From IMG/VR virus record IMGVR_UViG_3300046028_005522, positions 1-55,131 of that record: a DNA stretch of 55,131 nt; one strand, 5' to 3'. A model generated the notes under the pieces. It was not told where the DNA came from and made no database searches. It was given only the letters and a program-made list of their open reading frames with translations. The position numbers and the translations under genes were made by a program. Shown here piece by piece: positions 12,920 to 51,395 of the stretch. Origin of the DNA: a virus. Taxonomy: Duplodnaviria > Caudoviricetes. Position 1 is the stretch's first letter. Each line of letters begins with the position of its first letter.

Positions 12920-13569
12920 ATGTATCTATAATATCTACCAAGATTGATTTCTAACTCAGCTTGGTAGAATTGATCAACTGCTTGGCTTTTCCAAAAATTT
13001 TCAGTGTACAAAAAATAGTTTACTTCTTTCCATCGTGCCATGTGGTCAGCAGATTCTCGATAGTCAATAGCATGATAAAACTCTGGTGTAGTTTCTACAA
13101 CATCTGCAAATTCAACATTTAACACATTGGGTTTGTCGAGTACTGGTTGAAATGGGATCAAATAGTTTTTTGCAGTTTCTCTAGATTTGTCAACTAAATC
13201 TATTCCAGATAAGTTTTTCCAAGTAGGTAAAAAATAATGATGATGTACTCTTGCCCATCTATAAATTTTACTTTTAAATGTTGTTGTTGTAACTATCAAT
13301 ATTTTGTTAAAGTTATCTAACGGCAACTGGCCCGGCCAGCAATGTGTCCCAATCCAGGTATCATTTTTGGTGTCCATTAAAGACACTTTTTGCATAAACT
13401 TATCTGCATCGTAATCAAGCATTACTGTGCTTGTATCACCAATTTTGCCTACACTATGATGTATGCTATCAATCCCGCCGTTAGTACCTATTGGAGAAAA
13501 CAACCCTGTCATTATGTCACATAACAGGCCACCACAGGTATAGTGCGGAAAACAAATCAAATTAAGCAT
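12916..13569 (-). CDS. Sulfotransferase-like/P-loop hypothetical protein
   Basis: LICFPHYTCGG N-terminal loop, GTHC, VEFADV; weak. Confidence 0.45.
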   Translation of the reverse strand: MLNLICFPHYTCGGLLCDIMTGLFSPIGTNGGIDSIHHSVGKIGDTSTVMLDYDADKFMQKVSLMDTKNDTWIGTHCWPGQLPLDNFNKILIVTTTTFKSKIYRWARVHHHYFLPTWKNLSGIDLVDKSRETAKNYLIPFQPVLDKPNVLNVEFADVVETTPEFYHAIDYRESADHMARWKEVNYFLYTENFWKSQAVDQFYQAELEINLGRYYRYI

Positions 13570-14668
13570 TAAAATACTCTTGCACCTCTGGAAATAATTG
13601 TCTCCAATTTGTTCCTCGTTGAAAATCAAGTTGATCAAGGTATTGCACTAGTTTTGCGGTGTTACCCGAATATGGTTTTTGATTGAGAGCAATTGTTACC
13701 TGATGGGTATTACCATATTTGGCTTTTATTTTGTTACGCAATTCTGGTGGTGTGTGCTCTAGGCCAAGTGTTCCGGTGCACAAATGCACATTAAAATCTG
13801 ATTTGTCACCGTATCTATTAGATCCAAGATGTTTGTTAAACCAAATTTCAAACTGATCAAAATAAAATATGTTTAGAGGATTTATAGTATGCTCGACTCC
13901 GAACATAACATTGCCAGGAACTGTGTTTATAGCACTATTTGCAAATTCTTCTAATTTTTCCCAACGGTATGGCCAACGTAGAAAACTAAATTGTTCATTA
14001 ACACCGTCAAGGCTTGCAATCCATTTGACTAACTTGAACTTTTCCCAAATTGCCATTATTGATTGAGTTGGCATGATACTAAAATTACTAGTATACTGTA
14101 TAGTTACATTACTAGGATTGGGAACTAACGACATAACTTTTGTGTGTGTGTCTGTCATTAACGGCTCGCCACCACCAAATTTAATATATTTTAATTCAGT
14201 TAGATCTTGATCGGATAACAAACTAATAAACTTGTCAGTAGTAACACCTTGACGATCATCGTTATGAAGTTGATGAATCTGTACTGGTTGTAGTACATTA
14301 TTTCTAAGATTTTCTTGGTACCAAAAACTGCTTGATCCTGAGTTACACGATGGACAAGCTAGATTGCACTTTTTGTTTACTGCTACTGTTAAAAATTCTA
14401 GTTTGTTGTTGGCCCCTGTTATAGTGTCAAACGATGCTAGTCGAAAACTGTGTGCTCCTCTAGATTCAGCGTCAATACAAATTTTACAAGAAGTATCAAC
14501 CTTTGCATCTACCCAATGCATCCTATGAGTTGTTAATTGCTTTGACAAATCTTTATCTGGGTCTACGCTGTTCTCTTCAGCAAAAAAACAACACGGAGAC
14601 ATGGTAAACGTAGTAGTGTTATTATTATAAACCAATCCATTGGTTAAATGTCTACAAAACTCGGACAT
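13562..14668 (-). CDS. Radical SAM protein with N-terminal Cys cluster (twitch-like)
   Basis: CNLACPSC, GGGEPL, YTSN, ASLDG; N-terminal C...PCC...CKIC. Confidence 0.9.
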   Translation of the reverse strand: MSEFCRHLTNGLVYNNNTTTFTMSPCCFFAEENSVDPDKDLSKQLTTHRMHWVDAKVDTSCKICIDAESRGAHSFRLASFDTITGANNKLEFLTVAVNKKCNLACPSCNSGSSSFWYQENLRNNVLQPVQIHQLHNDDRQGVTTDKFISLLSDQDLTELKYIKFGGGEPLMTDTHTKVMSLVPNPSNVTIQYTSNFSIMPTQSIMAIWEKFKLVKWIASLDGVNEQFSFLRWPYRWEKLEEFANSAINTVPGNVMFGVEHTINPLNIFYFDQFEIWFNKHLGSNRYGDKSDFNVHLCTGTLGLEHTPPELRNKIKAKYGNTHQVTIALNQKPYSGNTAKLVQYLDQLDFQRGTNWRQLFPEVQEYFNA

Positions 14669-14669
14669 G

Positions 14670-16115
14670 TTATGATGTTTTGATTTTGCCCAACAACTGC
14701 TTGAGCTTGGCGCTTTGTACATCGGCTGTGACTTTTGGCGCTTCTAAATCAAAACCTTCTCGAGCTTGTGGTCGTTCCCAAGGTACAGACTTGGCATCGT
14801 CTGCGGCTGCACTAACCAGGCTTTTTGCTTTGATCGAGTCCATGATACTTGTACTGGGCTTTTTACTAAACCCGTTTTCGCTATCATCCCCACCTTCATC
14901 AGTAATGCGCATAGTTTCAATGTTGTACTCCAAATCAATCTTTTGACCAACGCCGGTCGAACTTCGACTCTTCATACACTGGATCTGATACTTGCCGCGC
15001 TCTTTCATTGCACGACTTGTAAAGATACCAAACACGTTATCTGCTGTGTTGATCTTGGAAATACCACCCGAAATATGCGAGTGATCAAATTCAATTTCTT
15101 CCACAGCTGATCGATTCAACTGTGACGCAGTTACCATCAAGATGCCCAGTTCTTTGGCCAAGTTACGCAGTTCTTCTGAAACATACTTGTCCTTCACAAA
15201 CAAGTCATTTGGCGAAACTTTTGCACTCACAGGCATCAACAAGTCCAAGTAATCAATCATCACAAAGTCTACCTTCTTGCCTGTTTGAATTTGATACTCT
15301 TTCAAATAAGCACGAATGTCATTGATGTTTGATTGTGCGGGCAGGCCTTTTACTTGATAGTTGCCTGACTTTTTGGCCACCAGCTTGACTTTGAGCTCTG
15401 TAGTGTCTATGTCCTTGCGAATGTCTTTGGTGCTCATGTTGGTCAACATGGCATCTGTTCTCAAACTAGTAAGCTCTTCTGAAAGTTCTAGTGTAATGTA
15501 CACACCGCTAATTCCTTGCTGTAGCCAGTTAAGCGCAATGTTCATCATGACCAAGCTCTTGCCTGATCCTGAGCCGCCTGCAAAAATGTTGAGTTCGCCG
15601 CGACTGAATCCGCCATACAACAATCTATCCAGTTGTGGCCATCCTGTGCTTACTTGCCCGCCCGAGTTAAAGTATTTCTCAATGCGAGCCTTAGGATCAG
15701 CAAAGTAGTCTGTGCCCATGTCCTTGGTAAGTGATATCTGTACTGCATCCTTGATGAGTTTTTCAACAGGATCATATTCACCTTTTTCAAGTAAGTCTGC
15801 GGCTTTTAAAATAGCACGTTCTAGTTCCTGGCGCCGAGTAAATGCTTCAAACTCGCCCATGAACCAGTCAAAGTGACCTTCGTTCAGGTCCGGCACTGAT
15901 TGCAGTTTAACGCCAGTGGTAGCAGAAATCTGTGTGCGCTCCGGCAGGGTCTTGTGCTTGTCAGAATGTTCTTTAATGAACTCAGCCGCAGGTCTCAAAC
16001 TTTTGTCAAAGTTCTGTGGGTTGTAGATATTTTGAACACGCACATAACTTTGTGCATCCTCCAACATCATTTCTAGAAATAAACGTTGAACGTCAAGTCC
16101 GTATTCTTTTAACAA
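14670..16115 (-). CDS. gp41: Replicative DnaB-like helicase (T4 gp41 type)
   Basis: GGSGSGKS, YITLEL, IDYLDL, TASQLNR. Confidence 0.93.
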   Translation of the reverse strand: MLKEYGLDVQRLFLEMMLEDAQSYVRVQNIYNPQNFDKSLRPAAEFIKEHSDKHKTLPERTQISATTGVKLQSVPDLNEGHFDWFMGEFEAFTRRQELERAILKAADLLEKGEYDPVEKLIKDAVQISLTKDMGTDYFADPKARIEKYFNSGGQVSTGWPQLDRLLYGGFSRGELNIFAGGSGSGKSLVMMNIALNWLQQGISGVYITLELSEELTSLRTDAMLTNMSTKDIRKDIDTTELKVKLVAKKSGNYQVKGLPAQSNINDIRAYLKEYQIQTGKKVDFVMIDYLDLLMPVSAKVSPNDLFVKDKYVSEELRNLAKELGILMVTASQLNRSAVEEIEFDHSHISGGISKINTADNVFGIFTSRAMKERGKYQIQCMKSRSSTGVGQKIDLEYNIETMRITDEGGDDSENGFSKKPSTSIMDSIKAKSLVSAAADDAKSVPWERPQAREGFDLEAPKVTADVQSAKLKQLLGKIKTS

Positions 16116-17079
16116 GTTGTTTTTTCCTTAGTTCTATTTTGATTTTACTGGTTTCTCTGGCTGCCATAATAGTTAGCAAGGTGCCCACACGCCCTAACAC
16201 AATCACAGCATCATTAACATCTTTGCAGCCTTCTGGCCACTCGGGTATACTTACCGCCCATCCAAGTTCCACAGCACGATCCACCAGTTCTATGCCTGCT
16301 AGATCTTGATCAGGCACTACAGTTATGTCTCGTCCCAAGTTGCGTATCAGTCGAGCCTGTGCGTCACTTATGGTATTGTGCATCACAGCCACACCACCAA
16401 TACTCAATGCATCAAAGATGCCTTCTGTCACAATCACATTGGTCCAATTTTTATGCTGTAAGTCCGTTCCAAACACATAACCCGGCTGGCTGTCTGAAAT
16501 AAACTTGGGTTGCTTGTTGTCTAAAAATCTGCAGGTGTAACCTACAATTTTGTTTTCGTATGTGAATGGTATGACCACATGCGGGCGTGTCCAATGAACA
16601 CCATCATTCTCTATCTGTACCATGGCAGGAAAGTCTTCGGGCACATGTCTACTACGCACATAGTCCCAATATGGTCCATGTTCGGGCATCAACAACTCAG
16701 CATGTGGTGGCAAGTCCCGTTCTTCAAATGCAATACCAGCCAATTGGTTCCAGGCCTGTTGTCGATCTTCTAGTATGCCATGTATGCTGCGATGCCGCAG
16801 ACTTTCAAGATTAAGCATTTCAATTTCGTTGTCTGGAACACCCATCCATCCAAGCAGTCTACGAGCTTTCACACTCAGTGTACGCCCCATAATAAAGCTG
16901 GCTGTGTAGGCGCAATTGAAACAGTGATAGCTCCAACCTGCTTCGGTAGCTTTAAGTCCGCCGCGGCCTCTTGTGTCTCGAGTGCTGCCGTTATGCTGAC
17001 AACAAACCGCGTTGAAACTCAACCAACCAGATGGCGTGGGTTTTCTTTTTGCAGGTAGATACGCAAGGATGTCAAGCAT
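16093..17079 (-). CDS. gp61: DNA primase (T4 gp61 type)
   Basis: Zn-binding CC...HCFNC; TOPRIM VTEGIFDAL, PDQD, KDVND. Confidence 0.9.
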   Translation of the reverse strand: MLDILAYLPAKRKPTPSGWLSFNAVCCQHNGSTRDTRGRGGLKATEAGWSYHCFNCAYTASFIMGRTLSVKARRLLGWMGVPDNEIEMLNLESLRHRSIHGILEDRQQAWNQLAGIAFEERDLPPHAELLMPEHGPYWDYVRSRHVPEDFPAMVQIENDGVHWTRPHVVIPFTYENKIVGYTCRFLDNKQPKFISDSQPGYVFGTDLQHKNWTNVIVTEGIFDALSIGGVAVMHNTISDAQARLIRNLGRDITVVPDQDLAGIELVDRAVELGWAVSIPEWPEGCKDVNDAVIVLGRVGTLLTIMAARETSKIKIELRKKQLVKRIRT

Positions 17080-18204: not shown

Positions 18205-18582
18205 ATGGGTAATACAATCTTCGATAAGCTGGCAGAAAAATACCCGTTTATCACTCTTTGCAGTTATGCAAACGCAGAATACGTGGGCATTATACAAAAC
18301 AGAGATGACAGCGTGACTACCATCTACGACTTTGGATCTGTAGTTGACCAACAAGATAAAATGTTGTTTTTAGAACTGGCTAACCAGTGGTGGTGGGAAA
18401 GCAATAGATCCATCCCCATCAACATATTCCTTCGTCAAGATTGGGACAAATTTAGATTTACGTTGCGCACGTTTTCCAACAAAGATCTTGAAGTTTTACA
18501 CGGTCCAGTGTGCAGTTTGATGGACATTGCTCGCAAAAAAAGCAAGCGAAAATCAATCACACTTGTGCGACGTCTTGATTGA
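18205..18582 (+). CDS. Hypothetical protein
   Basis: Only + ORF filling the gap; WWWESNRSIPINIFL; TAAGTA at 18161. Confidence 0.7.
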   Translation: MGNTIFDKLAEKYPFITLCSYANAEYVGIIQNRDDSVTTIYDFGSVVDQQDKMLFLELANQWWWESNRSIPINIFLRQDWDKFRFTLRTFSNKDLEVLHGPVCSLMDIARKKSKRKSITLVRRLD

Positions 18583-19135
18583 GCAAGTTCATGTGTAATG
18601 CTACCAAAGCTGCGTAGGAGACCGAGTGGCTTTTCTTGAATGTGTATCCACGTGAGTCATCTCCGTTCCATACTTCAGCAAACACTTCTGTCCATGGACG
18701 ATTCTGTAGATGTGCTTTGCCCGGACGAATAACTGAAATAAACGCTGCCATTCTGGGTATTGAATCTGGCTGCATTGACGTCATCAAATCTGTGTAGTTG
18801 CCCACATGCACTAGTTGCTTGGTCCAGGCAGTGTCGGTCCATAGTCTACTCCATGGTGGTGCGGCTGCCAACATAGCCGCATAGTGTGCCGGGTCACGGA
18901 TCAACTGATACACACTCATGTTCAACAGATCTATCTTGAAGTATCCACGCTGTTCTGCTGACTCATAGTCTATGGCTGCACAGCCATTGGGTATGTCTCT
19001 AGGAATGTCTGTAACATAGATGCCTGAATTGTGCTTACGCACTTGGCCTTGATGCAGTTGCCGTGCGGCAGTGTGTTCAATCAGTTTCAACACAGCCGTT
19101 CTGTCCGGCACATCAATGTCAATGTCTGCGCTCAT
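18557..19135 (-). CDS. Miniature DNA polymerase III alpha (DnaE)-like catalytic domain
   Basis: ADIDID, KHNSG, GYFKIDLL, IRPG and GYTFKKSHSVSY in DnaE order within 192 aa. Confidence 0.85.
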   Translation of the reverse strand: MSADIDIDVPDRTAVLKLIEHTAARQLHQGQVRKHNSGIYVTDIPRDIPNGCAAIDYESAEQRGYFKIDLLNMSVYQLIRDPAHYAAMLAAAPPWSRLWTDTAWTKQLVHVGNYTDLMTSMQPDSIPRMAAFISVIRPGKAHLQNRPWTEVFAEVWNGDDSRGYTFKKSHSVSYAALVALHMNLLNQDVAQV

Positions 19136-19491
19136 TTTGAATCAGTGTCACAAAGTGCAGTTACAACTTGCAGTTTCTCCCGGGCCAGTTCAACTGCTGC
19201 CAAGGCATCTGCCACTGTGGGATGCTTGGCTGCCAAGGCAGCAATGCGCCATTCTTCATCACGCTTGGCTCGCGCCCAATCCAACAGGGTTTCGGCGTCT
19301 GATGAGAGTGAAATCATAGGATGTGATGAGTGAAGCTGTTGCCAGGAGTTGCCATCATTAATTTCCAAACAGTTCATGCTGGGACTCCATCGCACCATGC
19401 CTGCACCGCTGGCACCTGGGCTGATGTATGGATTGGTAGACATGCCACCTGATACTTGAATGTATTTGCTGCCGCTAATATTTCTAATCAT
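19132..19491 (-). CDS. Hypothetical protein
   Basis: ATGA-coupled on both sides. Confidence 0.7.
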   Translation of the reverse strand: MIRNISGSKYIQVSGGMSTNPYISPGASGAGMVRWSPSMNCLEINDGNSWQQLHSSHPMISLSSDAETLLDWARAKRDEEWRIAALAAKHPTVADALAAVELAREKLQVVTALCDTDSK

Positions 19492-19857: not shown

Positions 19858-20556
19858 TTACCAACCTGCCTTGTTCAATATGTCTTTTGCGTATTCTTGA
19901 TCCGCTGGGTAGTTGTGAAACTTCTTTTGCCATACATCTGAGTCGATGTAAGGCCATACCATGCTGATCTGATCAGGAGAGAGTTCACCCAAGAACTGTT
20001 GTCCTGACTCTGAATTGTAAATCACCCAAGGTGATATCCTACCTGTTGTGACTGCATAGCACATGGCTGGAGTGCTGCCGTATCTCAAGCAGTCCTGTGG
20101 CTGTGCTGAATTTTTCTCTGCCCAATCCATGCCAAACTCCACTGCTCGTGCTAGAGCATCGTTAACATTCTCCACGGGCAAATGCTGTATGAGATATTCT
20201 GTGTACAGTTGATCACTTGCCCACCGATCAATCTTTTTGTTGTTCTTTAACAGCCACTCAAGAAACTGTTTGGGATTGATAGTTTTTGTGCTCACACAAT
20301 AGCGTCCAAACTTCACAAAGCCGCGATAGTAAGGCGAGTCAGCAAAGTCATCAAAGGTCTTGAGCCGGGCTGATCCTTGGCTCATTTCATAGAATCGTAT
20401 GTAGGCTTGAAAACCCAGTTCCACACCGCGCTCTGTTCGTTCCTGTCTGCGCCGTTTGGGCTCGCACACATGCACTGCTAGACTGGTTTCTCGAGCAAAG
20501 TCTTTTTTGCAGTACTGGCACTGAGTCATTTTAGTAGATTGTTGTTGTTGATCCAT
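19858..20556 (-). CDS. Zn-finger protein in the replication cluster (start probably MTQCQYC)
   Basis: CQYCKKDF...LAVHVC C2HC-type finger. Confidence 0.7.
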   Translation of the reverse strand: MDQQQQSTKMTQCQYCKKDFARETSLAVHVCEPKRRRQERTERGVELGFQAYIRFYEMSQGSARLKTFDDFADSPYYRGFVKFGRYCVSTKTINPKQFLEWLLKNNKKIDRWASDQLYTEYLIQHLPVENVNDALARAVEFGMDWAEKNSAQPQDCLRYGSTPAMCYAVTTGRISPWVIYNSESGQQFLGELSPDQISMVWPYIDSDVWQKKFHNYPADQEYAKDILNKAGW

Positions 20557-41032: not shown

Positions 41033-41298
41033 TAATTTTCCCAGTCGTCTTCGTTGGGGTCCTCTTCTTCAGGATCTTCGTCTTCTTCGTCTTCTGAGTA
41101 GTCTTTGTCGTTATCAAGATATGCTGTAAGTGCTCGTTTGATATCTGTATCGCCTTTGAAAGCGTTACGGATGTCTTCCACATCACTATCATTATCCATT
41201 AGAATCTGAACCACAGTTTCTGCTGCTTCATTGCGGTCAACTGTGTTTACATATCGCTTGAGCTCACTCCAAATTTCTGCTGCCACATGTTCACTCAT
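41032..41298 (-). CDS. Hypothetical protein with acidic tail
   Basis: Coupled between uvsX and uvsY. Confidence 0.75.
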   Translation of the reverse strand: MSEHVAAEIWSELKRYVNTVDRNEAAETVVQILMDNDSDVEDIRNAFKGDTDIKRALTAYLDNDKDYSEDEEDEDPEEEDPNEDDWEN

Positions 41299-42350
41299 TC
41301 TGCTTCCTCCTCGCCGGTACTTACCTCTTCCTTAATGTTTCCGAAGTCTTTCATCACAGTATCAAGACAATTGTCATCGTTGCGTTCCCATCCTTTGCGG
41401 AACTTCTTGATGATTTCACCTTGGCTTGTGGTGAACACCAGGCTGTTGCCTTCTTTCTTGAGCAGGCCTTTTTTCTCAATCAAGTCAGTAAGACCTGAGT
41501 ATGGGCTCATACCTGTTGTGTAAGGAATCTTAACTTGCACACCTTCAAAAGGTTTGGCATAGCGTGTTTTCATTACTTTGCAACCAGCACGGATGCCCAT
41601 GACATCAGTAATCTTGTTGCCGTCCTCGTCCTCTTTCAGTTTCATCTTCTTCATGGCCACAACAATTGATGAGGCGTAAATGAAACCTTGACCGCCGCTA
41701 ATTTTATCGTCTGGGTCAAACATATCCTGGCTTGCGTATGTGTGATTGGTACATACCAATCCCACGTTGTAACTACCAAACATGTTCACACAGTTACGCA
41801 CCAAGGCGGTGAGAGCTTTGGGTTTACGTCCTAGATCACCCTTCATTTCGCCTGCATCAAACTGGTTCACATCAGTGGGCGTCAACAACATGCCCAAGGA
41901 GTCAATCACAAACATGACCTTGGGACGCTCGCCATCTGGCAGGGCCTTGTAGTCACTCATGAATGTGGAGATAGTTTTAGCCACATCATCAATCATGGCC
42001 ATACTCAACTTGAGTAATTTGCTATCACTAGTGTCAACACCAAGTGCTTTGAGCCAATCTTCATCCAGTGCGTTTTCTGAATCAATCAACACCACAAAGA
42101 TACCTTGCTCTTGTGCGTTCTTCACAATGTTGCCTGAACAAATATAACTCTTACCTGCACCCGAGTCACCAGCAAACACAGTTACCTTGCCCAGCGGAAT
42201 GCCACGGTTAAAGTCTCCTGAGATTAGGTAGTTTAGTGCGTAGTTGCCTGTTGAGATCCAGTCTGTTGGATCATTAAAACCAATCGATAGGCCGTCGATT
42301 GATTTGGTAATTTCCTTACGAAACTTACTTACATCAAATGGTTTTCCCAT
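41295..42350 (-). CDS. uvsX: RecA-like recombinase UvsX
   Basis: GDSGAGKS, IDSENA, VIDSLG, TNHTY, SGG. Confidence 0.93.
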   Translation of the reverse strand: MGKPFDVSKFRKEITKSIDGLSIGFNDPTDWISTGNYALNYLISGDFNRGIPLGKVTVFAGDSGAGKSYICSGNIVKNAQEQGIFVVLIDSENALDEDWLKALGVDTSDSKLLKLSMAMIDDVAKTISTFMSDYKALPDGERPKVMFVIDSLGMLLTPTDVNQFDAGEMKGDLGRKPKALTALVRNCVNMFGSYNVGLVCTNHTYASQDMFDPDDKISGGQGFIYASSIVVAMKKMKLKEDEDGNKITDVMGIRAGCKVMKTRYAKPFEGVQVKIPYTTGMSPYSGLTDLIEKKGLLKKEGNSLVFTTSQGEIIKKFRKGWERNDDNCLDTVMKDFGNIKEEVSTGEEEAE

Positions 42351-42375
42351 GTATCACCTGTTATAAAAATAGAAG

Positions 42376-42401
42376 AACACAAGAGGTTGCCCCCTTGTGT
42401 T
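42376..42401 (-). terminator. Terminator-like hairpin after gp32
   Basis: AACACAAGGGG-GCAA-CCTCTTGTGTT, 11-bp stem with GNRA loop, then CTTCTATTTTT. Confidence 0.8.
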
Positions 42402-42411
42402 GATGCAGAGA

Positions 42412-43410
42412 TTACTGCTTGTTTTGACGTGCGCGGATCATGGCCAAGATGTCTTGAGCATTGCCACTTGGCTTGGCCGCTGTGACTGGTGCGGCTGGGG
42501 CTGCGGGTTCTTCATCAAATGCATCTTCAGCAACAGGTGCTGCCGGAACGGCAACCTTCAGTGCTGGTTTGGCAGCAGGTGCTGGTGTGTCTTCAGCATC
42601 ACCGGCAGCGGCGCCACCAGGTGCAGCCACGCCAGCTGGGCGGAAGTATTGACCCCAACGTTCAGTGTCGTATGGCTGTCCATCCACTGATGCTTCAAAC
42701 ATCTCTTTAATGACCTTCAGCTCAACATCGCCAGGGCGCTTGGGCAGGAATGTGCTCAAGTCATGCAAGCTGTGAGTTTCAATTGCAGCCTGTTCAGCTT
42801 CTGTAAGTGCTGACTCTTTTCTAGCCCACTTGGAACTGTTGTAGTCAGCAAAGCCACCTTTTTGTGTCTTGGTGATACGGAAGTCCAGGCCACGCATCAA
42901 GTCAGTTGGCAATTCTTCCAACTCAGGATCCATCAACGCACCCTTGATTAGGGTGAACAACTGAGGTCCAATGATGAACTTGCGGATGGGATTGTCCGGG
43001 GTCTTGTCTTCGGAGATGGGATTCTCACGCACAAAACCTTGGAACAGGTATGAACGTTTTTTCCAGTACTTACGACCCATGTCTTCAAGGCTCTTGTCCT
43101 TGAACCAAGTACGAACTTCTGCCAGTACCGGGCAAGCGTCTCCCCACATTTCCACGCAGGGTACTTGTACGAATACTTGTTTTGATTCCATCTCTCCTTT
43201 GACGCCATTGAATGGCAGTCGGATCATTGCACGTTCGACCCAGAAAAATGTGTTTTTTGTGTTACCGTCAGGTAGGAAGCGTAGTGTGGCCGATTGACCT
43301 TCTTCCATGTTCCAGTGTGGATAAATTGCTCGATCGCCTCCACCTTGGTTTGAGTTGCCTTTTGTGTCAGCTGCCTGTAGTCTTGCTCGGATTTCTGCTA
43401 AAGATGCCAT
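42412..43410 (-). CDS. gp32: Single-stranded DNA-binding protein (T4 gp32 type)
   Basis: LRFLPD, C...CPV, YWKKRSY, GLDF, ADYNSSKW; Ala/Pro/acidic tail. Confidence 0.88.
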   Translation of the reverse strand: MASLAEIRARLQAADTKGNSNQGGGDRAIYPHWNMEEGQSATLRFLPDGNTKNTFFWVERAMIRLPFNGVKGEMESKQVFVQVPCVEMWGDACPVLAEVRTWFKDKSLEDMGRKYWKKRSYLFQGFVRENPISEDKTPDNPIRKFIIGPQLFTLIKGALMDPELEELPTDLMRGLDFRITKTQKGGFADYNSSKWARKESALTEAEQAAIETHSLHDLSTFLPKRPGDVELKVIKEMFEASVDGQPYDTERWGQYFRPAGVAAPGGAAAGDAEDTPAPAAKPALKVAVPAAPVAEDAFDEEPAAPAAPVTAAKPSGNAQDILAMIRARQNKQ

Positions 43411-43430
43411 AGTTTGTTTCTCCTAAAAAA

Positions 43431-43545
43431 GTTGCCTATGTGTTGCCTATCTAAAATTAGATCTTTGTTGCCTGTGACGCACAAACAAAAAAGCGCATAC
43501 ACCATGTAGTATATGCGCTATTTGCCTTGGTGTCAAGTGTATTTA
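43431..43545 (-). promoter_or_regulatory. gp32 leader: TAAATA box, sigma70 promoter, overlapping terminator and AGGCAAC repeats
   Basis: TAAATA 43540-45; TTGACA(43531-36)-17nt-TATACT(43508-13); AGCGCATA/TATGCGCT stem plus U-tract; AGGCAAC x3. Confidence 0.8.
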
Positions 43546-43547
43546 TG

Positions 43548-45686
43548 TCATCTGAGCAAAGCTAATGATTTTATTCTTGCCAGAAGTGCAGTATCAGATT
43601 TGCTTTCGTAGTAGGCACCAGTGATAGCACCATTGTAGTTGATTGGGTCTTGTGGTGCTTCGCCAATCACTGGTGCTACACTACCGGCTACTGTGCCCAT
43701 TTCATACATGCCACATTCGGCTAGGCCGTGTTCTGGGCAGTACTCACCTTCCATGGTTGCATTGCATGTGCCTTCTACGACTGGTGCGCTCAATTCTGGC
43801 ATGGCTTCAACTGTGGCAATTGGATCTGTTTCGGGCATGATCATACCTGAGTTGCTTTCCGTAATGCCCAAGTCGTCTGCTAGGCGTTGTGATATCCATT
43901 CATGTGGATCGCCAGTGCGAGCTTTTTTCACTCCATAAGGCATGTCATCAAAGTAGTAGTCATACAGTGCATCAAACAAGTCGTTGTCTAAATCAGCACC
44001 CTTTTCAAAGTCAGCAACTTCTCTGCCGAAACGTTGCAAGATGTGTTCTAGGGTGTGACCAGTGGAGTCTGTGAGCACACTTTCTCGAAGTGGCACGCCA
44101 GCATATTTCAACATGGCATTGAGTTCTGTGTTTTCTTCCATTCTACCTATAGCACGGCTGATACCAACTTTGCGATTGGCAATCTTAGGATCTTTTTCAA
44201 ATCTACCTGATTTTGGAAGTCCGCCGGCCACTGCATTAAATGCAACTCTAGCACCTTTCTGAAATCCAGTACCATGACTGCGATCAGCTACATCATCGAC
44301 TGCTCGGTTTACATAGTTGCTGAGTGTGCCGGGGCTCAATTCATCCAACTGATCTTCTGCCATACCTTGTTCAGGAGCAGTGCCTGGTGCTTGTTGACCA
44401 GCAGCAGGTGCCACTGGCTGTTGTTGTTCAGCATCAGGTGTGGTGTTCATCTGAATGCCAAGTTCTTGCAATCTGGCCTGCACATCAGTGTCATCCCAAC
44501 AGTTAGCACGAGGATCTTGTTCAGCCAAGTCAGCAAGAATGTCAAACAATTTATCATCGCCTATGACATCATACAGTTGTTCTTTGGCATTGGTAGCATC
44601 TGGCCCAACAATGAGTTCTTGGCTCATGAGTTCATCCAGTTTGGCTTGTGCTTCTGGTGTATCTGGCAAAGCCCAGGTGCCTTCCATGATCTGGTTTGCC
44701 CAGTTTTCAAAAATTTGTGCTTCTTTCATAGCTTTTCCTCGTTGTTGTATTTTGGCCAGTGTGGGCAATGCAGCCTCAATTCTGGCATCTAGCGTTTGTT
44801 CAATAAACATGGTCTTGAGATCTTCTACCAGGGCAGTTTCATCTCCAATGTCTGCCGGTGTCCAAGATTCAAAATATTGGTTGTATCCGCGACCTGTGGC
44901 CATGTGTTGTAGATTTCCGCGCAATTCACTATAGTAGTGCTGAACTGTTTCTACTAGTTCTTGTGTGATGCCTTCAAACACTCGCTGTTGGCTGGCTCGG
45001 TTAAACCTACTCAACACAGCCATTTCTGTCACAATCTCATTGATGTGTTGGCCACGGATGTCATAGGGTCTGCCGCCTTGTTTTACATGCTCCAACATGG
45101 CTCGGCCACCTGACAGTTTCACAAATGGCAGTTTGAATCGTTCACCATCCACAGTTTCAATAAACAAACTTTCCACATAGCGATAGCGTTTGTCATCTTC
45201 ACCAATCATTCGATTGTGTTTGATTACCAATCGAGCTTCTGTTTGCTCGCCCACATAGCTGATCTTGCGTGTGCCATAATAGCCTTCAAATAAGCCTTCT
45301 TTGATGGCTGCCATGCCTTGCATGGTATGCTTGAGTTGATTGATGTCTTTGGGACTGAATGTGCCCAAGCCATGACTGGTAGCAAATTGTGATATTTCTT
45401 CTAGGAACCCTAAATGCCGCTCGCTGCCAAGCCAATCTAGCTTGTCTTGAGGATTTTCCATTGTTTTCCCCAGATTGTCGCCAAAAAACATTTGTAGATC
45501 GCTATCGTCGCCTAGTACGATTACCACCGTGCCATAGTTTTTGCCCGAGCTGGCAACCCAATCAAATGCAAAAGTCTTGGCTTCTGCAGGTGCAGAATCC
45601 TGACCTTGTCCGTCTGTGTATTTTACTTCAAAGTTTTTAGTGGCCAACAAGTCAGCCAGATCTTGAGAAAGATTTTCAATTGCCAT
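43548..45686 (-). CDS. Large acidic putative head-associated protein
   Basis: TAAATA 7 nt upstream; many [LIVM]-x-E sites; directly downstream of terminase. Confidence 0.6.
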   Translation of the reverse strand: MAIENLSQDLADLLATKNFEVKYTDGQGQDSAPAEAKTFAFDWVASSGKNYGTVVIVLGDDSDLQMFFGDNLGKTMENPQDKLDWLGSERHLGFLEEISQFATSHGLGTFSPKDINQLKHTMQGMAAIKEGLFEGYYGTRKISYVGEQTEARLVIKHNRMIGEDDKRYRYVESLFIETVDGERFKLPFVKLSGGRAMLEHVKQGGRPYDIRGQHINEIVTEMAVLSRFNRASQQRVFEGITQELVETVQHYYSELRGNLQHMATGRGYNQYFESWTPADIGDETALVEDLKTMFIEQTLDARIEAALPTLAKIQQRGKAMKEAQIFENWANQIMEGTWALPDTPEAQAKLDELMSQELIVGPDATNAKEQLYDVIGDDKLFDILADLAEQDPRANCWDDTDVQARLQELGIQMNTTPDAEQQQPVAPAAGQQAPGTAPEQGMAEDQLDELSPGTLSNYVNRAVDDVADRSHGTGFQKGARVAFNAVAGGLPKSGRFEKDPKIANRKVGISRAIGRMEENTELNAMLKYAGVPLRESVLTDSTGHTLEHILQRFGREVADFEKGADLDNDLFDALYDYYFDDMPYGVKKARTGDPHEWISQRLADDLGITESNSGMIMPETDPIATVEAMPELSAPVVEGTCNATMEGEYCPEHGLAECGMYEMGTVAGSVAPVIGEAPQDPINYNGAITGAYYESKSDTALLARIKSLALLR

Positions 45687-45696
45687 AGTGTGTTAT

Positions 45697-47280
45697 TTAT
45701 CGCATCATTGATATGAACGGCATAGGCTCAACAATCATATCTCCGTGGTCTTTTAGGTGTGTATCTAGGTCTGCATGATAGGTTTGCAATAGTAACAGCA
45801 TACGCACAGCCAACAAACTGGCCATTACTAAGTCGTCAGTTTCACCTGGTTTTGCAGCATAACTGGTGCCCAAGGCCACAAACGTTTTTAGTTCTGATAC
45901 CAAGGGTCTTGAGTTAATTTTCATACGCCCAGACTCTATTAGGATTTTGAACTTGTTGCAAGCTGTAATTTTGCTTTTATTTGTGGTGTTAAAACCCTTG
46001 CGGAATCGGCGCCCTGTTGTGCCTGTTACAGAGTTGTCACTAAGAAAGTAGCCAGGAATGTTATCTTCGCCGTATTCTGCTATGCTGATTAAGGCGGCTT
46101 CGCCAATGGTGTTGTTTTCCACTGAGTAGTAAATGCTTTTTTCATCTTTGACTACAGCATGCAGTTCTTTCACAATATCTGCTAGAATCCGTATCTGTGT
46201 GGGAATATCAGTTTTGTTGTGGCGCCACTCGGCAATTTGATCAGTAGTTCTAGCATCAAATACCTGTATGGCAGCAGGGTCTCCACCGGTGCCTAAGCTA
46301 GGATCTAGTGCCACAACATACATGCCATCTTTTACAGGGTCTTTGTACCAACGCACCTGACCTGATCTACGAGCAGGTTCTGCACCCTCTAAGTCCATGA
46401 GCTTGATAGGATTGATCAGTGTCTCGTCGTTAATGACAAATTCGCAGTCCATTTCTCTGCGAAAACGCTCGTCGCCTAGCTGTGCCAGTTGTTCAGAACC
46501 CCATTGATCCCCGCGTTCAGGATGTTCACGCCAGTATGATCTAAATGCACGGAATCCATTAATACCCAGTTCCGTAGTGTTGCCATGTTCATCTTCTGTC
46601 TTGTTAGCACCCTTCCACAAAAACGCAAACTGATCCTCGTCTGAGTTGGGGGTGCTTGTGATAATTGCCTTACCACCAGTGGCTAATGTGGGCGAAATTG
46701 AAGTCCAAAACTCTTTGGCAATAGTAGGGCGCACAAATGCAAATTCGTCAGCGTACAACAAGGATATCGACATACCTCGGCCTGTTGTTTCTGTTGTGGT
46801 TTGACTCACAATGCGTGATCCGTTTTCAAACTCTATTGAGCCTTTGTTGTAACTGGTAGCACCTGCTCGAATGTGATTTGGGCACAGTTCATAAGCATAT
46901 CTAATACGCTGCATGATCTCTTGTGCACCGGTGTATTTGTGTGCGGCAATGAGAATGGTAGAATCTGGCACAAACATAGCATACCACAACAGGTACCCAG
47001 CAGCTGATGTTGACTTCCCTGTCTGTCGAGGCATTAAGGATATTGAATATCTGTAATTGTGATAGGTAGCAATCAGTCGCTTTTGATAGTCAAAAGGGTG
47101 ATACAACATCTTGCCGCGTGTGGGATGCTGGATAAAGAAAAAGTTATCCATAAAGTACAAAGGACCGTTCACAGGATCAGCACACAGCGCAAACTCTGTG
47201 AGTTCTTGTTCAGTGTAAGTCTCTACCCTGTGTGGTGCTTTGACCAGTACTGTTTCTAAATTACTTTTTAGACCAATCAT
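45697..47280 (-). CDS. gp17: Terminase large subunit (T4 gp17 type)
   Basis: PRQTGKST, GRG, YADEFAF, TSTPN, ALDPSLG, VENN, DDLVMA. Confidence 0.95.
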   Translation of the reverse strand: MIGLKSNLETVLVKAPHRVETYTEQELTEFALCADPVNGPLYFMDNFFFIQHPTRGKMLYHPFDYQKRLIATYHNYRYSISLMPRQTGKSTSAAGYLLWYAMFVPDSTILIAAHKYTGAQEIMQRIRYAYELCPNHIRAGATSYNKGSIEFENGSRIVSQTTTETTGRGMSISLLYADEFAFVRPTIAKEFWTSISPTLATGGKAIITSTPNSDEDQFAFLWKGANKTEDEHGNTTELGINGFRAFRSYWREHPERGDQWGSEQLAQLGDERFRREMDCEFVINDETLINPIKLMDLEGAEPARRSGQVRWYKDPVKDGMYVVALDPSLGTGGDPAAIQVFDARTTDQIAEWRHNKTDIPTQIRILADIVKELHAVVKDEKSIYYSVENNTIGEAALISIAEYGEDNIPGYFLSDNSVTGTTGRRFRKGFNTTNKSKITACNKFKILIESGRMKINSRPLVSELKTFVALGTSYAAKPGETDDLVMASLLAVRMLLLLQTYHADLDTHLKDHGDMIVEPMPFISMMR

Positions 47281-49158: not shown

Positions 49159-49739
49159 TAGATCAATGGCGCTAATAAGGTATAGCTACTTAGTCTAAAA
49201 GTTCCTGGTGGTACTTCGCTTAACATTGCATGCCAGTGTAAATGAGTATACTCGTTTTTTCTAGGAAAATTTAACATTATGTAACCAGTGTTTGGTATGG
49301 ATAAAAATTGTTTTCTTACTGGAGCTCCATTCTTATTGTGATAAAAACAAGTTCCCAGTTGCTCATGAGCAGCAATCCAATTCAGCTGCATGGCTCCAGA
49401 CAACTCACCATCAGTGTGCATCAAACATGTAAATCCTGGCTCGTCCAGCCACCAGGTAGAACCATATGATACTTCTAATTTTCTTCCAATGACTTCTCCT
49501 ACTTTAGACCATATTGTGTTTATATGGTCGTCCCACTCTCTAGTCCAGGGGATACTATCAGTTAAAATACGCCGACGTAACCAATGTTCTTGTCCTTCTT
49601 GTCGTATCCAGGGCAAATCTAACCATGAGGTAGTCAGCACTTTTTCCACAAGCTCTGGAGACACTATATCTTTTACTTCAAAAAGATTGTTATATTCGTC
49701 AACAGGTGTTATTTGCATAGGAATGCCAGTTCCGGCCAT
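49158..49739 (-). CDS. 2OG-Fe(II) oxygenase-like protein
   Basis: WLDEPGF...MHTD...HWHAM...FRLS. Confidence 0.75.
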   Translation of the reverse strand: MAGTGIPMQITPVDEYNNLFEVKDIVSPELVEKVLTTSWLDLPWIRQEGQEHWLRRRILTDSIPWTREWDDHINTIWSKVGEVIGRKLEVSYGSTWWLDEPGFTCLMHTDGELSGAMQLNWIAAHEQLGTCFYHNKNGAPVRKQFLSIPNTGYIMLNFPRKNEYTHLHWHAMLSEVPPGTFRLSSYTLLAPLI

Positions 49740-50857
49740 AAACGTTCAAACTCTCCAGCTTTATCTGGATGATACCGAGTTTCATTGTCATGTATGTGCT
49801 TGAAGAATGCTGTGTCAATTTTACTGACTTTGCTCTCACTCAATCTGTTGCGATAGGTGGCTAACGCATTGTCAAAGAACTGGCGTTCAGCAGGAGTGGC
49901 AATATTCATCTCATAGAAACGTTCAATCTCTGCTATGGCTTCCCGCGCAACACCAGCACCATGCAAGAATGGATCAAGGTATTCAGGTTGAAACAAGTTT
50001 TGCCACAGCACTGTGGTGCCTGTATCTTCAGCAAACTGTCTTAACTCACAGATGCGTGTGGCATTGTAAATGTTGTATACTGCATGTATACCGCCCCATT
50101 GACCTTGCGTGGTCATGAGATGTTTGATCTTACTCAAGTTTTCTTTGATCAACACCCAGCTGGCACCATGGCGCACATATTCCACGCGGTCACCTACATT
50201 GTCAAAGCTCATTGACCAGCCTACTCGATTGCGTGTTGATAACTTTTGGAATATCTTGTTTGAATCCAAGTCCACATTCAAGTTTGTGATCAGTGTAACA
50301 ATAGCATCTTTAGGAATGACATCTAACAGTCTATTGTTTTCTGGCAGCAACAGTGGCTCGCCACCTACAAGTGCTACTTCGTGTATGTGTTCATAGTGCT
50401 GTTCAATGAAGTCGCATACACTATCATAATAAGGTCTTGCACCTGACTTGAATGGAACGCCTTTGAGGCTGGCCCATTTTGAACTGCATGACTCGCCACA
50501 GTAGTTGCAACTCAAGTTACATGTGGTATTCCATCGCACATCCACAATCACAGGATAATGATACTGATCACCAGCAGTGGCATAGTCAAAGTTGGGATTC
50601 ACATTGTTGTGCCACTGGCGTTCAGAATCTGCACCAAAGCGTTCGGCTCGCACACAGTTAGAACAGTATTCGTGCGGTTCACCTTGGGCCAAACTGGTGC
50701 GTATCTCTGTCATGAGATTTGAGTTAAGGATCTGCTCAATTGTTTGTGTATTGAGATTGCCCAGCAGGTTGGGATTGCCAGCACAGCAAGTTTTAACGTC
50801 ACCTCTGGGATTGATATGCAAGCCACGCCAAGGGGCTGCGCAAAAGAAATTGCTCAT
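49709..50857 (-). CDS. Twitch-domain radical SAM protein (in frame with upstream nuclease)
   Basis: MSNFFCAAPW...TCC...CSNC; CNLSCNYC; GGEPL; own ATG 4 nt after TAAATA. Confidence 0.9.
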   Translation of the reverse strand: MSNFFCAAPWRGLHINPRGDVKTCCAGNPNLLGNLNTQTIEQILNSNLMTEIRTSLAQGEPHEYCSNCVRAERFGADSERQWHNNVNPNFDYATAGDQYHYPVIVDVRWNTTCNLSCNYCGESCSSKWASLKGVPFKSGARPYYDSVCDFIEQHYEHIHEVALVGGEPLLLPENNRLLDVIPKDAIVTLITNLNVDLDSNKIFQKLSTRNRVGWSMSFDNVGDRVEYVRHGASWVLIKENLSKIKHLMTTQGQWGGIHAVYNIYNATRICELRQFAEDTGTTVLWQNLFQPEYLDPFLHGAGVAREAIAEIERFYEMNIATPAERQFFDNALATYRNRLSESKVSKIDTAFFKHIHDNETRYHPDKAGEFERLWPELAFLCK

Positions 50858-51313
50858 CCCGTATTTACAGGAGTATAATTGGCACCAACTTGTTTTGGCT
50901 TCGCCGTAGTACTCACGTGCAAAACCATTAGCAATCAACTGCTGACGTAGGCTAACACCGTTTAACAGCACATCTCCCAGTACACGCCCGCCATACTTGT
51001 CCCAGTCCATGAGTACAATTTGACGCTTTTGACTGGCAGCAATCAGTTGTTTGGTAAATGCACTAGCAGCTTCGCCGCGCTGTGCTTCACTAGCACACTG
51101 AGCACGATGTCCTTTTTCAGGGGTGTCCACACCAAACACTCGAATACTGAGTTCTGGTTTAAGTGGTGCTGGTAACCAGGTAGCAGCAATACCCACTGTG
51201 TCGCCGTCGATTACTCTGGTGATCACAGCGTCATAGGTAACGCCAGGTCGTTGTTTGGGTTGTGCTAGGGCCAGCACAGGTAATACAAGTAAGAGTAGAA
51301 GTAGTTTTTTCAT
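50858..51313 (-). CDS. Staphylococcal nuclease (SNase) family protein with signal peptide; no stop before the radical SAM gene
   Basis: MKKLLLLLLVLPVLALA; RVIDGDT, IRVFGVDTPE, DKYGGRVLG. Confidence 0.88.
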
Positions 51314-51317
51314 AATT

Positions 51318-51395
51318 TTAATTTGAGAGTTCTTCCCAGCCCATTTTCCAAAGCAGATCAGCATTGGCCGCTGTGTAGGCCACTGCTACAGCCAT
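51318..51395 (-). pseudogene. 25-aa mini-ORF, possible remnant of a deleted gene
   Basis: MAVAVAYTAANADLLWKMGWEELSN; TAATG-coupled to the upstream gene; fills the intergenic gap. Confidence 0.4.

What the first reader, a model, noticed from the sequence alone, without database searches (positions are those of the whole stretch)
18557..19135. 192-aa miniature family-C polymerase in a T4-type replisome region
Seen: DIDID, HNSG, GYFKIDLL, RPG and GYTFKKSH occur in DnaE order, with all three catalytic Asp. The gene is intact and ATGA-coupled. Established: in bacterial DnaE these motifs span several hundred residues of a protein over 1000 aa, and T4-like phages replicate with a family-B polymerase. 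Inference: this is a compacted palm/fingers enzyme rather than a fragment, with an unknown role (primer extension, gap filling or template-independent transfer). It is co-transcribed with a gp62-like subunit and a Zn-finger protein. Similar short 'Pol III alpha' annotations may already exist for related large phages.
Basis: partly seen in the sequence, partly recalled or inferred. Interest (0 to 1): 0.8.

Follow-up and report, generated by a model that had tools for sequence, protein, structure and literature searches.

The report
Half of a split mini polymerase
This intact 192-residue gene is the metal-binding half of a tiny two-gene relative of the bacterial replicative DNA polymerase that a group of giant phages carry beside their normal polymerase; the family was described by computation in 2021 and I found no bench test of it.

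Summary
The ORF (window 18557-19135, minus strand, 192 aa) and all five motifs are real. It belongs to a family of about 190-aa phage proteins (PHROG 11778). Asp4/6/8, Lys67, Asp69, Arg137-Pro138 and Lys167/His170 are conserved across 85 members. Median dN/dS is 0.074. The predicted fold matches only Pol III alpha among solved structures.

It is not a self-contained miniature polymerase. It begins exactly at the DxDxD motif. In relatives (RaK2, Ettore, three large IMG/VR records) the preceding part of the palm, with an invariant GVGRGSS nucleotide-binding loop, is a separate gene of about 170 aa. That gene lies 34-100 kb away beside the clamp loader.

- The two families occur in nearly the same phage records (96 and 93).
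- Natural fused proteins of 375-376 aa exist.
- A complex model scores 0.90, against 0.00 for the best control.
- The partner gene is not in this 55-kb fragment, which is about 16% of a genome.

Relatives also carry a family-B polymerase and no PHP domain. Iyer et al. 2021 (Viruses 13:63) already described this split minimal Pol III alpha in group 2.2 jumbo phages. This gene is therefore a new member of a known, still uncharacterised kind. No neighbour resembles gp62.

The parts
18557..19135 (-). C-terminal (Mg2+- and template-binding) unit of the split minimal DNA Pol III alpha; 192 aa; stop codon included
   Evidence: ORF. phrog_11778 at E 9e-51 and phrog_405 (a 1190-position DnaE-like profile) at E 8e-7. 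AF2 model with pLDDT 95.3. The top 13 Foldseek PDB hits are all Pol III alpha.
19112..19126 (-). DIDID (residues 4-8): the DxD metal-binding carboxylates at the very N-terminus
   Evidence: D4, D6 and D8 are kept in at least 90% of 85 relatives. In the fused homolog P0043 the same motif lies inside one continuous PF07733 match (residues 97-207). It contacts the GVGRGSS loop of the partner in the complex model.
19022..19033 (-). HNSG (residues 35-38)
   Evidence: H35 and G38 are kept in at least 90% of 85 relatives. It lies on a beta-hairpin of the model (strands 22-28 and 31-40).
18923..18946 (-). GYFKIDLL (residues 64-71), holding the third catalytic Asp (D69)
   Evidence: K67 and D69 are invariant in 85 relatives. 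The motif aligns to 'GLVKFDFLGL' of E. coli DnaE inside the 538-641 match.
18716..18727 (-). RPGK (residues 137-140), a remnant of the finger domain
   Evidence: P138 is invariant; R137 and K140 are kept in at least 90%. It aligns to 'FRPG' of E. coli DnaE at 639-641. Relatives give sub-threshold PF17657 finger matches at this place.
18626..18640 (-). FKKSH (residues 166-170)
   Evidence: K167 and H170 are kept in at least 90%. It aligns to 'GFNKSHSAAYAL' of E. coli DnaE at 739-769.
19132..19491 (-). Upstream 119-aa ORF whose stop overlaps the start of the C-unit (ATGA); no known family; not gp62-like
   Evidence: It is found upstream in only 34 of 76 close IMG/VR loci with enough flank.
19858..20556 (-). 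Conserved upstream 232-aa protein (phrog_11058) with a possible Cys2-His-Cys zinc finger near its N-terminus
   Evidence: phrog_11058 at E 3e-56. zf-C2H2 at E 0.025, below the cut-off. Present upstream in 70 of 70 close loci with enough flank.
18205..18582 (+). Convergent 125-aa ORF (phrog_11637) that overlaps the 3' end of the C-unit gene by 26 bases
   Evidence: The same arrangement occurs in RaK2 (ORF125w) and Ettore (ETTORE_0018). Present in 72 of 73 close loci.
16093..17079 (-). gp61-like DNA primase, two genes downstream of the C-unit
   Evidence: phrog_47 at E 2e-30. Downstream in 43 of 43 close loci with enough flank. RaK2 and Ettore have the same order.
14670..16115 (-). gp41/DnaB-like replicative helicase
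   Evidence: phrog_19 at E 9e-70. Downstream in 32 of 32 close loci with enough flank.

Best explanation
The ORF encodes the C-terminal unit of a two-gene, minimal C-family (Pol III alpha/DnaE-type) nucleotidyltransferase found in T4-related jumbo phages, the 'group 2.2' of Iyer et al. 2021.

This unit supplies the three metal-binding aspartates (the DxDxD at residues 4-8, and D69) and a stripped-down finger/template-binding helical bundle (RPGK and FKKSH).

The other half of the Pol-beta-like palm carries an invariant GVGRGSS nucleotide-binding loop. In relatives it is a separate protein of about 170 aa, encoded tens of kilobases away next to the clamp-loader gene.

The two proteins are inferred to dock so that the GVGRGSS loop sits against the DxDxD strand and rebuilds one active site. 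The assembled enzyme of about 360 aa is inferred to add nucleotides to a DNA 3' end, as an accessory to the phage's family-B replicase.

Shown here: homology, fold, conservation, purifying selection, the split junction, co-occurrence of the two families, and natural fusions.

Inferred: physical assembly, catalytic activity and role. My preferred role is short-patch synthesis at the fork, such as extension of primase-made primers or gap filling. That rests only on the conserved linkage of the C-unit to primase-helicase and of the N-unit to the clamp loader.

The partner gene is not in this 55-kb fragment.
For: 1. Family and fold.
- phrog_11778 at E 9e-51. There is also a weak match to the 1190-position DnaE-like phrog_405, at profile positions 578-681.
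- A profile of the 85 aligned relatives matches E. coli, T. aquaticus and M. tuberculosis Pol III alpha at E 5e-6 to 2e-4.
- The AF2 model has pLDDT 95.3. Its 13 best Foldseek PDB hits are all Pol III alpha (probability 0.93-1.00, E 3e-3 to 5.5e-2). All later hits have probability of 0.08 or less.

2. The split.
- RaK2 and Ettore each have a second short gene (172 and 169 aa). It matches PF07733 positions 19-97 and ends '...EFLK', immediately before the point where the window protein begins 'MSADIDID'.
- In the natural fused protein P0043 (375 aa), one PF07733 match runs unbroken across the junction (residues 97-207 against profile positions 12-121, E 5e-16).
- P0043 residues 80-180 are 44% identical to the Ettore N-unit. 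Residues 190-372 are 38% identical to the window protein.
- Three fused clusters exist: P0043, P0154 and P0155.
- The AF2 model of the fused form (pLDDT 90.6) has 16 hits at E of 1e-3 or less, all DnaE or PolC. The next hit is at E 3.1.

3. Partner family.
- 149 short proteins match at E of 1e-3 or less.
- GVGRGSS is invariant in 67 aligned N-units.

4. Co-occurrence.
- The C-unit is in 96 phage records and the N-unit in 93, with nearly the same genus counts.
- The three close relatives that are at least 51% complete (G001, G002, G003) have both units. The two records that are 27-29% complete show no N-unit.

5. Complex model, using the N-unit of relative G001 with the window protein.
- The score is 0.90 against 0.00 for the best of 3 controls.
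- The tool's mark was reached by 58 of 80 solved complexes and 2 of 110 mismatched pairs.
- The three runs agree in at least 98% of contacts, and the partner's pLDDT is at least 90.
- N-unit residues 135-136 touch C-unit residues 7-9.
- These are halves of a domain that is one chain in solved DnaE structures, so the pass may reflect that likeness.

6. Selection.
- All 14 closest homologs are intact at 192 aa.
- dN/dS against the eight nearest is 0.046-0.114. The median over 36 pairs is 0.074.

7. Context.
- PolB is present in RaK2, Ettore, G002 and G003.
- No PHP domain was found in 0 of 3 whole or near-whole genomes.
- The order C-unit, structural gene, primase, helicase is kept in RaK2, Ettore and the IMG/VR loci.
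- The order N-unit, small ORF, GroES-like gene, clamp loader is kept in RaK2, Ettore and G002.

8. Literature. The same description is in print: passages of Iyer et al. 2021, PMC7824862.
Against: - The partner gene was not found in the window. PF07733 gave no match at E up to 1, and tblastn with two N-units gave nothing better than E 0.43. For this particular phage the two-gene state is extrapolated from relatives that are 73-81% identical in the C-unit.
- The window is only about 16% of a genome, so PolB is also unverified for it.
- No activity has been measured for any member in the papers I could search.
- The protein lacks a thumb, most of the fingers, and the clamp-binding and OB modules. 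About 45 residues stand where DnaE has about 134, and about 10 where DnaE has about 97 (and the motif positions). Templated, processive synthesis is therefore far from assured.
- Foldseek E-values for the C-unit alone are modest (3e-3 at best) with TM-scores of 0.36-0.55.
- Pfam does not recognise the C-unit alone.
- A DnaQ-type exonuclease that might proofread is present in RaK2 and Ettore. It was not found in the window or in the 99%-complete relative G002.
- Synteny among the 80 IMG/VR loci is among close kin and is weak as independent evidence.
Confidence: 0.85

Rival explanations
1. A self-sufficient miniature polymerase. On this view the 192-aa protein alone is a compacted palm/fingers enzyme that needs no partner.
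For: It holds all three conserved acidic residues and the RPG and KSH motifs. It folds confidently on its own in the model (pLDDT 95.3). No partner gene lies in the window.
Against: It begins at the DxDxD motif and lacks the glycine-serine nucleotide-binding loop. In Pol-beta-fold transferases that loop is part of the active site (established knowledge, also stated in Iyer et al. 2021). The loop sits in a separate family that occurs in nearly the same phage records (96 and 93). That family is fused to the C-unit in three natural clusters. The window is only about 16% of a genome.
Confidence: 0.04
2. A non-catalytic remnant. The module would be kept as a structural or regulatory replisome part, for example a DNA- or primase-binding adaptor, and no longer transfers nucleotides.
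For: The thumb, most of the fingers, and the PHP, clamp-binding and OB modules are gone. These phages already have a PolB. No activity is reported.
Against: The residues kept best across relatives that are 26-62% identical are exactly the catalytic ones: D4/D6/D8, K67 and D69. In the partner the best-kept stretch is GVGRGSS. Adaptors usually lose such residues. dN/dS is 0.07, although that shows function, not catalysis.
Confidence: 0.06
3. An active two-subunit nucleotidyltransferase that is not a templated DNA polymerase. Examples are a template-independent 3'-tailing enzyme, or one acting on RNA primers or on modified nucleotides.
For: The Pol-beta fold superfamily includes many non-templated transferases (established knowledge). 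The template-gripping parts of DnaE are largely missing. The role is unknown in the literature I saw.
Against: The retained RPG and KSH helices belong to the finger region of DnaE. Iyer et al. call the C-terminal unit DNA-template-binding. The only structural matches are C-family replicases. The genes sit beside primase-helicase and the clamp loader.
Confidence: 0.1

Closest known systems
Split minimal DNA polymerase III alpha of group 2.2 jumbo phages (Iyer, Anantharaman, Krishnan, Burroughs, Aravind 2021, Viruses 13:63), C-terminal unit
   Same: It is a stand-alone protein of about 190 aa with the Mg2+-binding acidic residues and the template-binding helices. Its N-terminal NTP-binding unit is encoded by a distant gene in relatives. 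It accompanies a family-B polymerase, and no other Pol III domains are in the genome. The hosts include Atu_ph07 and RaK2-like phages.
   Different: Nothing essential differs. This copy comes from an uncultivated phage fragment that is at most 40% identical to any isolate in the phage collection. Its partner gene and PolB lie outside the fragment.
Bacterial Pol III alpha (DnaE; E. coli 2hnh, T. aquaticus 2hpi, M. tuberculosis 7pu7) and PolC (3f2c)
   Same: Pol-beta-type palm with DxD and a third Asp, plus the RPG and KSH finger motifs in the same order. They are the only structural neighbours.
   Different: The phage enzyme is 192 aa (about 360 with its partner) against 900-1200 aa. It has no PHP domain. 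About 45 residues stand in for the roughly 134 of DnaE that include the thumb. About 10 stand in for the roughly 97-residue finger insert between RPG and KSH. There is no clamp-binding, OB or tau-binding tail. The palm is divided between two genes.
'Truncated Pol III alpha' annotations in Rak2-like phages (CBB_328, 172 aa; Atu_ph07 gp316)
   Same: They belong to the same enzyme system. These are the N-terminal partner units, noticed in 2017 and 2018 as short Pol III alpha-like genes (one passage of each paper).
   Different: Those papers describe the partner, not this unit. They read it as truncated (CBB) or as a Pol III alpha subunit (Atu_ph07). The passages I read do not mention a second half.

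Membership tests
Split minimal Pol III alpha, C-terminal unit (Iyer et al. 2021) | Stand-alone protein of about 190 aa homologous to the Mg2+-binding part of the Pol III alpha palm plus template-binding helices | tested here: met
   192 aa. phrog_11778 at E 9e-51. Profile match to DnaE 538-641 and 739-769. Catalytic Asp residues conserved.
Split minimal Pol III alpha, C-terminal unit (Iyer et al. 2021) | Separate, distantly encoded N-terminal NTP-binding unit in the same genome | tested here: inconclusive
   Absent from the 55-kb window, which is about 16% of a genome. Present in RaK2, Ettore, G001, G002 and G003, 34 to about 100 kb away from the C-unit.
Split minimal Pol III alpha, C-terminal unit (Iyer et al. 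2021) | Coexists with a family-B DNA polymerase and T4-type replication genes | tested here: inconclusive
   The window has gp41-, gp61-, UvsW-, UvsX- and gp32-like genes but no PolB. PolB was found in RaK2, Ettore, G002 and G003. It was not found in the incomplete G001, G004 and G005.
Split minimal Pol III alpha, C-terminal unit (Iyer et al. 2021) | No other Pol III alpha domains (PHP and the rest) in the genome | tested here: met
   PF02811 was found in 0 of 3 genomes (G002, Ettore, RaK2), while the control rang in 14 of 14. PF17657 gave only sub-threshold hits, and these lie inside the C-unit gene itself.
Canonical C-family replicase (DnaE/PolC) | Catalytic triad of Asp residues on a Pol-beta-type palm | tested here: met
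   D4/D6/D8 are kept in at least 90% and D69 is invariant. D69 aligns with the KFD of E. coli DnaE. That this is D555, and that the DxD corresponds to D401/D403, is recalled and comes from no call.
Canonical C-family replicase (DnaE/PolC) | Glycine-serine NTP-binding loop in the same polypeptide | tested here: not met
   The protein starts after that loop. The loop (GVGRGSS) is in the partner family.
Canonical C-family replicase (DnaE/PolC) | N-terminal PHP domain | tested here: not met
   No Pfam hit in the protein. No PHP in 3 of 3 related genomes.
Canonical C-family replicase (DnaE/PolC) | Thumb, full fingers, and clamp-binding and OB modules (over 900 aa) | tested here: not met
   Length is 192 aa. 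The alignment to DnaE leaves no room for the thumb or the 642-738 finger segment, and the protein ends about 20 residues after the KSH motif.
T4 gp62 clamp-loader small subunit (claimed for a neighbour) | Sequence similarity of a neighbouring ORF to gp62 or clamp-loader families | tested here: not met
   None of the ten ORFs between 17.1 and 23.2 kb hit a clamp-loader PHROG. None of the ten ORFs scanned against Pfam hit a clamp-loader family either. In relatives the clamp loader lies next to the N-unit, elsewhere in the genome.

The most novel reading that the evidence does not exclude
The two-gene enzyme of about 360 aa is an active, template-directed DNA polymerase and would be the smallest C-family polymerase known. 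It works as a second polymerase in a T4-type, PolB-driven replisome. For example, it might take over primase-made primers before PolB does, much as Pol alpha does in eukaryotes. That would explain why one half is always linked to primase-helicase and the other to the clamp loader. It would also define the minimal catalytic core of the bacterial replicase family.
Probability: 0.3. Interest if true: 0.7.

Novelty: new member of a known kind. Interest (0 to 1): 0.35.

Why it matters
C-family polymerases are the replicases of bacteria and are normally over 900 residues long. A natural core of about 360 residues, divided between two genes and kept under strong selection in hundreds of environmental giant phages, would show how little of that enzyme is needed for chemistry. 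It would also show that a PolB replisome can recruit a second, unrelated polymerase.

For this window the practical value is correct annotation. The gene is one half of a two-part enzyme. It is neither a fragment nor a whole polymerase. The idea itself is already in print, so the remaining value lies in the first biochemical test.

Tried and rejected
- **Pfam on the protein alone.** No family at E up to 10.
- **phmmer against PDB sequences with the single protein.** Only chance hits to Vac8 at E 1.7. The profile of 85 relatives was needed.
- **megablast of 4 kb against the phage collection.** No match.
- **Search for the partner in the window.** None.
- **Mixed MAFFT alignments of fused, N- and C-units (A2, A4).** These were misaligned and discarded. 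A reduced set (A6, 37 rows) was checked with local MAFFT first.
- **VIA-align libraries.** Not installed, so there are no Z-scores or aligned ranges.
- **The search of earlier findings.** Closed.
- **Expression.**
  - Seven metatranscriptome runs from seven studies hold 5-17% of the sampled words.
  - Contigs of four runs were laid. Three of them cover parts of the C-unit gene, and the fourth lies only on the convergent ORF. Most pieces are 90-99% identical.
  - These are relatives' contigs in RNA libraries that may contain DNA. I do not count them as evidence of transcription or of habitat.
- **DnaQ-type exonuclease as a possible proofreading partner.** Present in RaK2 and Ettore. Not found in the window or in the 99%-complete relative G002. 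I dropped it as a general part of the system.
- **gp62-like neighbour.** Rejected.
- **Fused versus split as the ancestral state.** I did not try to root a tree to decide this.
Full report

- Window 18557-19135 (minus strand) is an uninterrupted 192-codon ORF.
- Its ATG overlaps the TGA of the upstream 119-aa ORF (ATGA at 19132-19135).
- The motifs sit at DIDID 4-8, HNSG 35-38, GYFKIDLL 64-71, RPG 137-139 and GYTFKKSH 163-170.
- Pfam does not recognise the protein.
- PHROGs place it in phrog_11778 'DNA polymerase', a 197-position profile, at E 9e-51. There is also a weak match to the full-length DnaE-like phrog_405, at profile positions 578-681 of 1190 (E 8e-7).

**Relatives.**

- An exhaustive HMMER scan of 1.84 billion representatives found 349 relatives at E of 1e-3 or less, and 205 at 1e-10 or less. 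Nearly all are about 185-215 aa.
- I aligned 85 full-length members that are 26-62% identical to the query. K67, D69 and P138 are invariant. D4, D6, D8, H35, G38, R137, K140, K167 and H170 are kept in at least 90%.
- The profile of that alignment matches E. coli Pol III alpha (2hnh) at E 5e-6. It also matches the T. aquaticus and M. tuberculosis enzymes.
- Residues 54-140 align to DnaE 538-641, the stretch from KFD to FRPG. Residues 151-180 align to DnaE 739-769, the stretch holding GFNKSHSAAYAL.
- About 97 finger residues of DnaE are therefore replaced by about 10 here. Only about 45 residues separate the DxD from residue 54, where DnaE has about 134 residues. That the DnaE stretch holds the thumb is recalled, not tested.

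**Fold.**

- AlphaFold2 with the 85-row alignment gives pLDDT 95.3 and pTM 0.88.
- Foldseek against the PDB returns Pol III alpha chains as the 13 best hits (4iqj, 5lew, 7pu7, 2hpi, 3e0d, 5fk*, 2hqa, 2hnh). Probability is 0.93-1.00, E is 3e-3 to 5.5e-2, and query TM-score is 0.36-0.55.
- Every later hit has probability of 0.08 or less.
- The VIA-align libraries were not installed.

**It is half of a split enzyme.**

- tblastn finds the protein in 96 phage records. All are large myoviruses of the RaK2, 121Q, GAP32, CBB, PA5oct and Atu_ph07 kind, at 28-40% identity. The gene is annotated 'hypothetical protein' or 'DNA polymerase'.
- In RaK2 and Ettore the gene sits in the same order as here: UvsW helicase, several small genes, this gene, a convergent small ORF, a structural gene, gp61 primase, gp41 helicase.
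- Searching those two whole genomes with PF07733 found a second short gene each (RaK2 ORF162, 172 aa; ETTORE_0087, 169 aa). These lie 34-44 kb away and three genes upstream of the gp44 clamp loader. They match only profile positions 19-97.
- Their translations end '...GRGSSV.SY.LFLIG.H.VDSLKY.L...EFLK*'. That is exactly where the window protein starts, at 'MSADIDIDV'.
- So the Pol-beta-type palm is cut immediately before the DxD strand. The N-unit carries the glycine-serine nucleotide-binding loop. This ORF carries the metal ligands and what remains of the fingers.

**Evidence that the halves belong together.**

- *Natural fusions.* P0043 (375 aa), P0154 and P0155 (376 aa) come from different sources.
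  - P0043 residues 80-180 are 44% identical to the Ettore N-unit (E 4e-25).
  - Residues 190-372 are 38% identical to the window protein (E 2e-37).
  - One PF07733 match runs unbroken over the junction, with residues 97-207 against profile positions 12-121 (E 5e-16). The free N-units stop at profile position 94.
  - The AF2 model of P0043 (pLDDT 90.6) has 16 PDB hits at E of 1e-3 or less, all DnaE or PolC (best 1.3e-8). The next hit is at E 3.1.
- *The N-unit is a family of its own.* 149 short proteins match at E of 1e-3 or less. Most are 163-185 aa, and JGI names some 'DNA polymerase III alpha subunit'. GVGRGSS is invariant in 67 aligned members.
- *Co-occurrence.* The N-unit is in 93 phage records and the C-unit in 96. 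The genus counts are almost identical (Escherichia 34 and 34, Pseudomonas 11 and 11, Klebsiella 10 and 11, Salmonella 8 and 8, Erwinia 8 and 8).
- *Complex prediction.* I used the N-unit of relative G001 with the window protein.
  - The score was 0.90 against 0.00 for the best of three controls.
  - The tool's mark was reached by 58 of 80 solved complexes and 2 of 110 mismatched pairs.
  - The runs agree in at least 98% of contacts, and the partner's pLDDT is at least 90.
  - N-unit residues 135-136 touch C-unit residues 7-9.
  - In solved DnaE structures these two pieces are one chain, so this pass may simply reflect that likeness. It supports binding and does not show it.

**This phage.**

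- The window is a whole IMG/VR record that CheckV rates as 16% complete, which implies a genome of about 340 kb.
- It holds neither the N-unit nor a PolB.
- IMG/VR holds at least 597 loci encoding a relative. The best 80 are 69-95% identical.
- Among five large relatives:
  - G002 (345 kb, 99% complete, C-unit 73% identical) has the C-unit, an N-unit (174-aa ORF) and an 886-aa PolB.
  - G003 (51% complete) has all three.
  - G001 (61% complete, 81% identical) has both units, but no PolB was seen.
  - G004 and G005 (29% and 27% complete) show neither an N-unit nor a PolB.
- In G002 the N-unit is again followed by a small ORF, a GroES-like gene and the clamp loader (phrog_168, E 8e-74).
- No PHP domain was found in 0 of 3 genomes (G002, Ettore, RaK2).
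- The only PF17657 finger signals are sub-threshold and lie inside the C-unit gene itself.

**Selection.**

- All 14 nearest homologs are intact 192-codon ORFs without indels.
- Nei-Gojobori dN/dS against the eight nearest (92-95% identical) is 0.046-0.114. The median over all 36 pairs among the nine sequences is 0.074. More distant pairs are saturated at synonymous sites.

**Neighbours.**

- The claimed gp62-like subunit is not supported. The ATGA-coupled upstream ORF (119 aa) has no family. The next is a DUF3307 membrane protein. The 232-aa phrog_11058 protein has only a sub-threshold C2H2 hit.
- Counting only the IMG/VR loci with enough flank:
  - the 232-aa protein is upstream in 70 of 70;
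  - the 119-aa ORF is upstream in only 34 of 76;
  - DUF3307 is upstream in only 12 of 74;
  - the convergent ORF is downstream in 72 of 73;
  - the structural gene is downstream in 58 of 58;
  - primase is downstream in 43 of 43;
  - helicase is downstream in 32 of 32.
- These loci are close kin, so the counts mostly show kinship. The same order in RaK2 and Ettore, at 32-40% identity, is the stronger point.

**Literature.**

- I read passages of Iyer et al. 2021 (PMC7824862, sections 3.4.1 and 3.5 and the Figure 3 legend).
[quoted passage not shown] - It accompanies the family-B polymerase, and no other Pol III domains are present.
  - They suggest that it may cooperate with PolB in synthesis of one strand or in repair.
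- I matched the family by this description. The accession lists are in supplements that I could not open.
- Earlier papers noticed only the N-unit. CBB_328 (172 aa) was called 'truncated' (one passage of PMC5259590). Atu_ph07 gp316 was called a Pol III alpha subunit (one passage of PMC6102473).
- Two full-text searches found no experimental study.
  - required all four terms and was limited to 2021 onward. It returned only Iyer et al.
  - One search returned 21 papers, of which I opened three.
  - The absence of an assay is therefore a limited negative.

**Verdict.** The motif observation is correct, and the gene is a genuine, strongly selected C-family module. It is the C-terminal half of an already described two-gene minimal Pol III alpha, not a stand-alone miniature polymerase. 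The catalytic activity, the assembly and the role remain inferred. This is a new member of a known kind.

Noticed in passing
P0043, P0154, P0155 (metagenome proteins, 375-376 aa): These are natural single-chain fusions of the N- and C-units, joined by a linker of about 10 residues. Their closest relatives on both halves (59-66% and 50-58% identical) are split forms. Whether fusion or split is ancestral is open. I did not see fused forms mentioned in the passages of Iyer et al. that I read.
   Followed up: partly
window 18205-18582 (+): A 125-aa ORF of unknown function (phrog_11637) converges on the C-unit gene and overlaps its 3' end by 26 bases. The arrangement is kept in RaK2, Ettore and 72 of 73 close IMG/VR loci.
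   Followed up: partly
RaK2 109954-110460 and Ettore 50327-50788 (whole-record coordinates): A DnaQ/RNase_T-type exonuclease, called the 'epsilon subunit' in the literature, is present in RaK2 and Ettore. It was not found in the window or in the 99%-complete close relative G002. It is therefore not a constant companion of the mini Pol III alpha.
   Followed up: partly
window 49709-51364 (-) and 13562-14722 (-): Two ORFs have radical-SAM-like PHROG matches. The 551-aa one also carries an N-terminal endonuclease-like region (phrog_452).
   Followed up: no
Ettore (OR805294.1) 88825-92602: The family-B polymerase of Ettore matches in two separate open frames (825 aa and 379 aa). The gene is therefore probably interrupted, whereas RaK2 has one 1003-aa frame.
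   Followed up: no
window 41295-47280 (-): A UvsX-like recombinase, a gp32-like single-strand-binding protein and a large terminase subunit lie in one minus-strand block. This confirms the T4-like character of the fragment. No tRNA genes were found in the whole window.
   Followed up: partly
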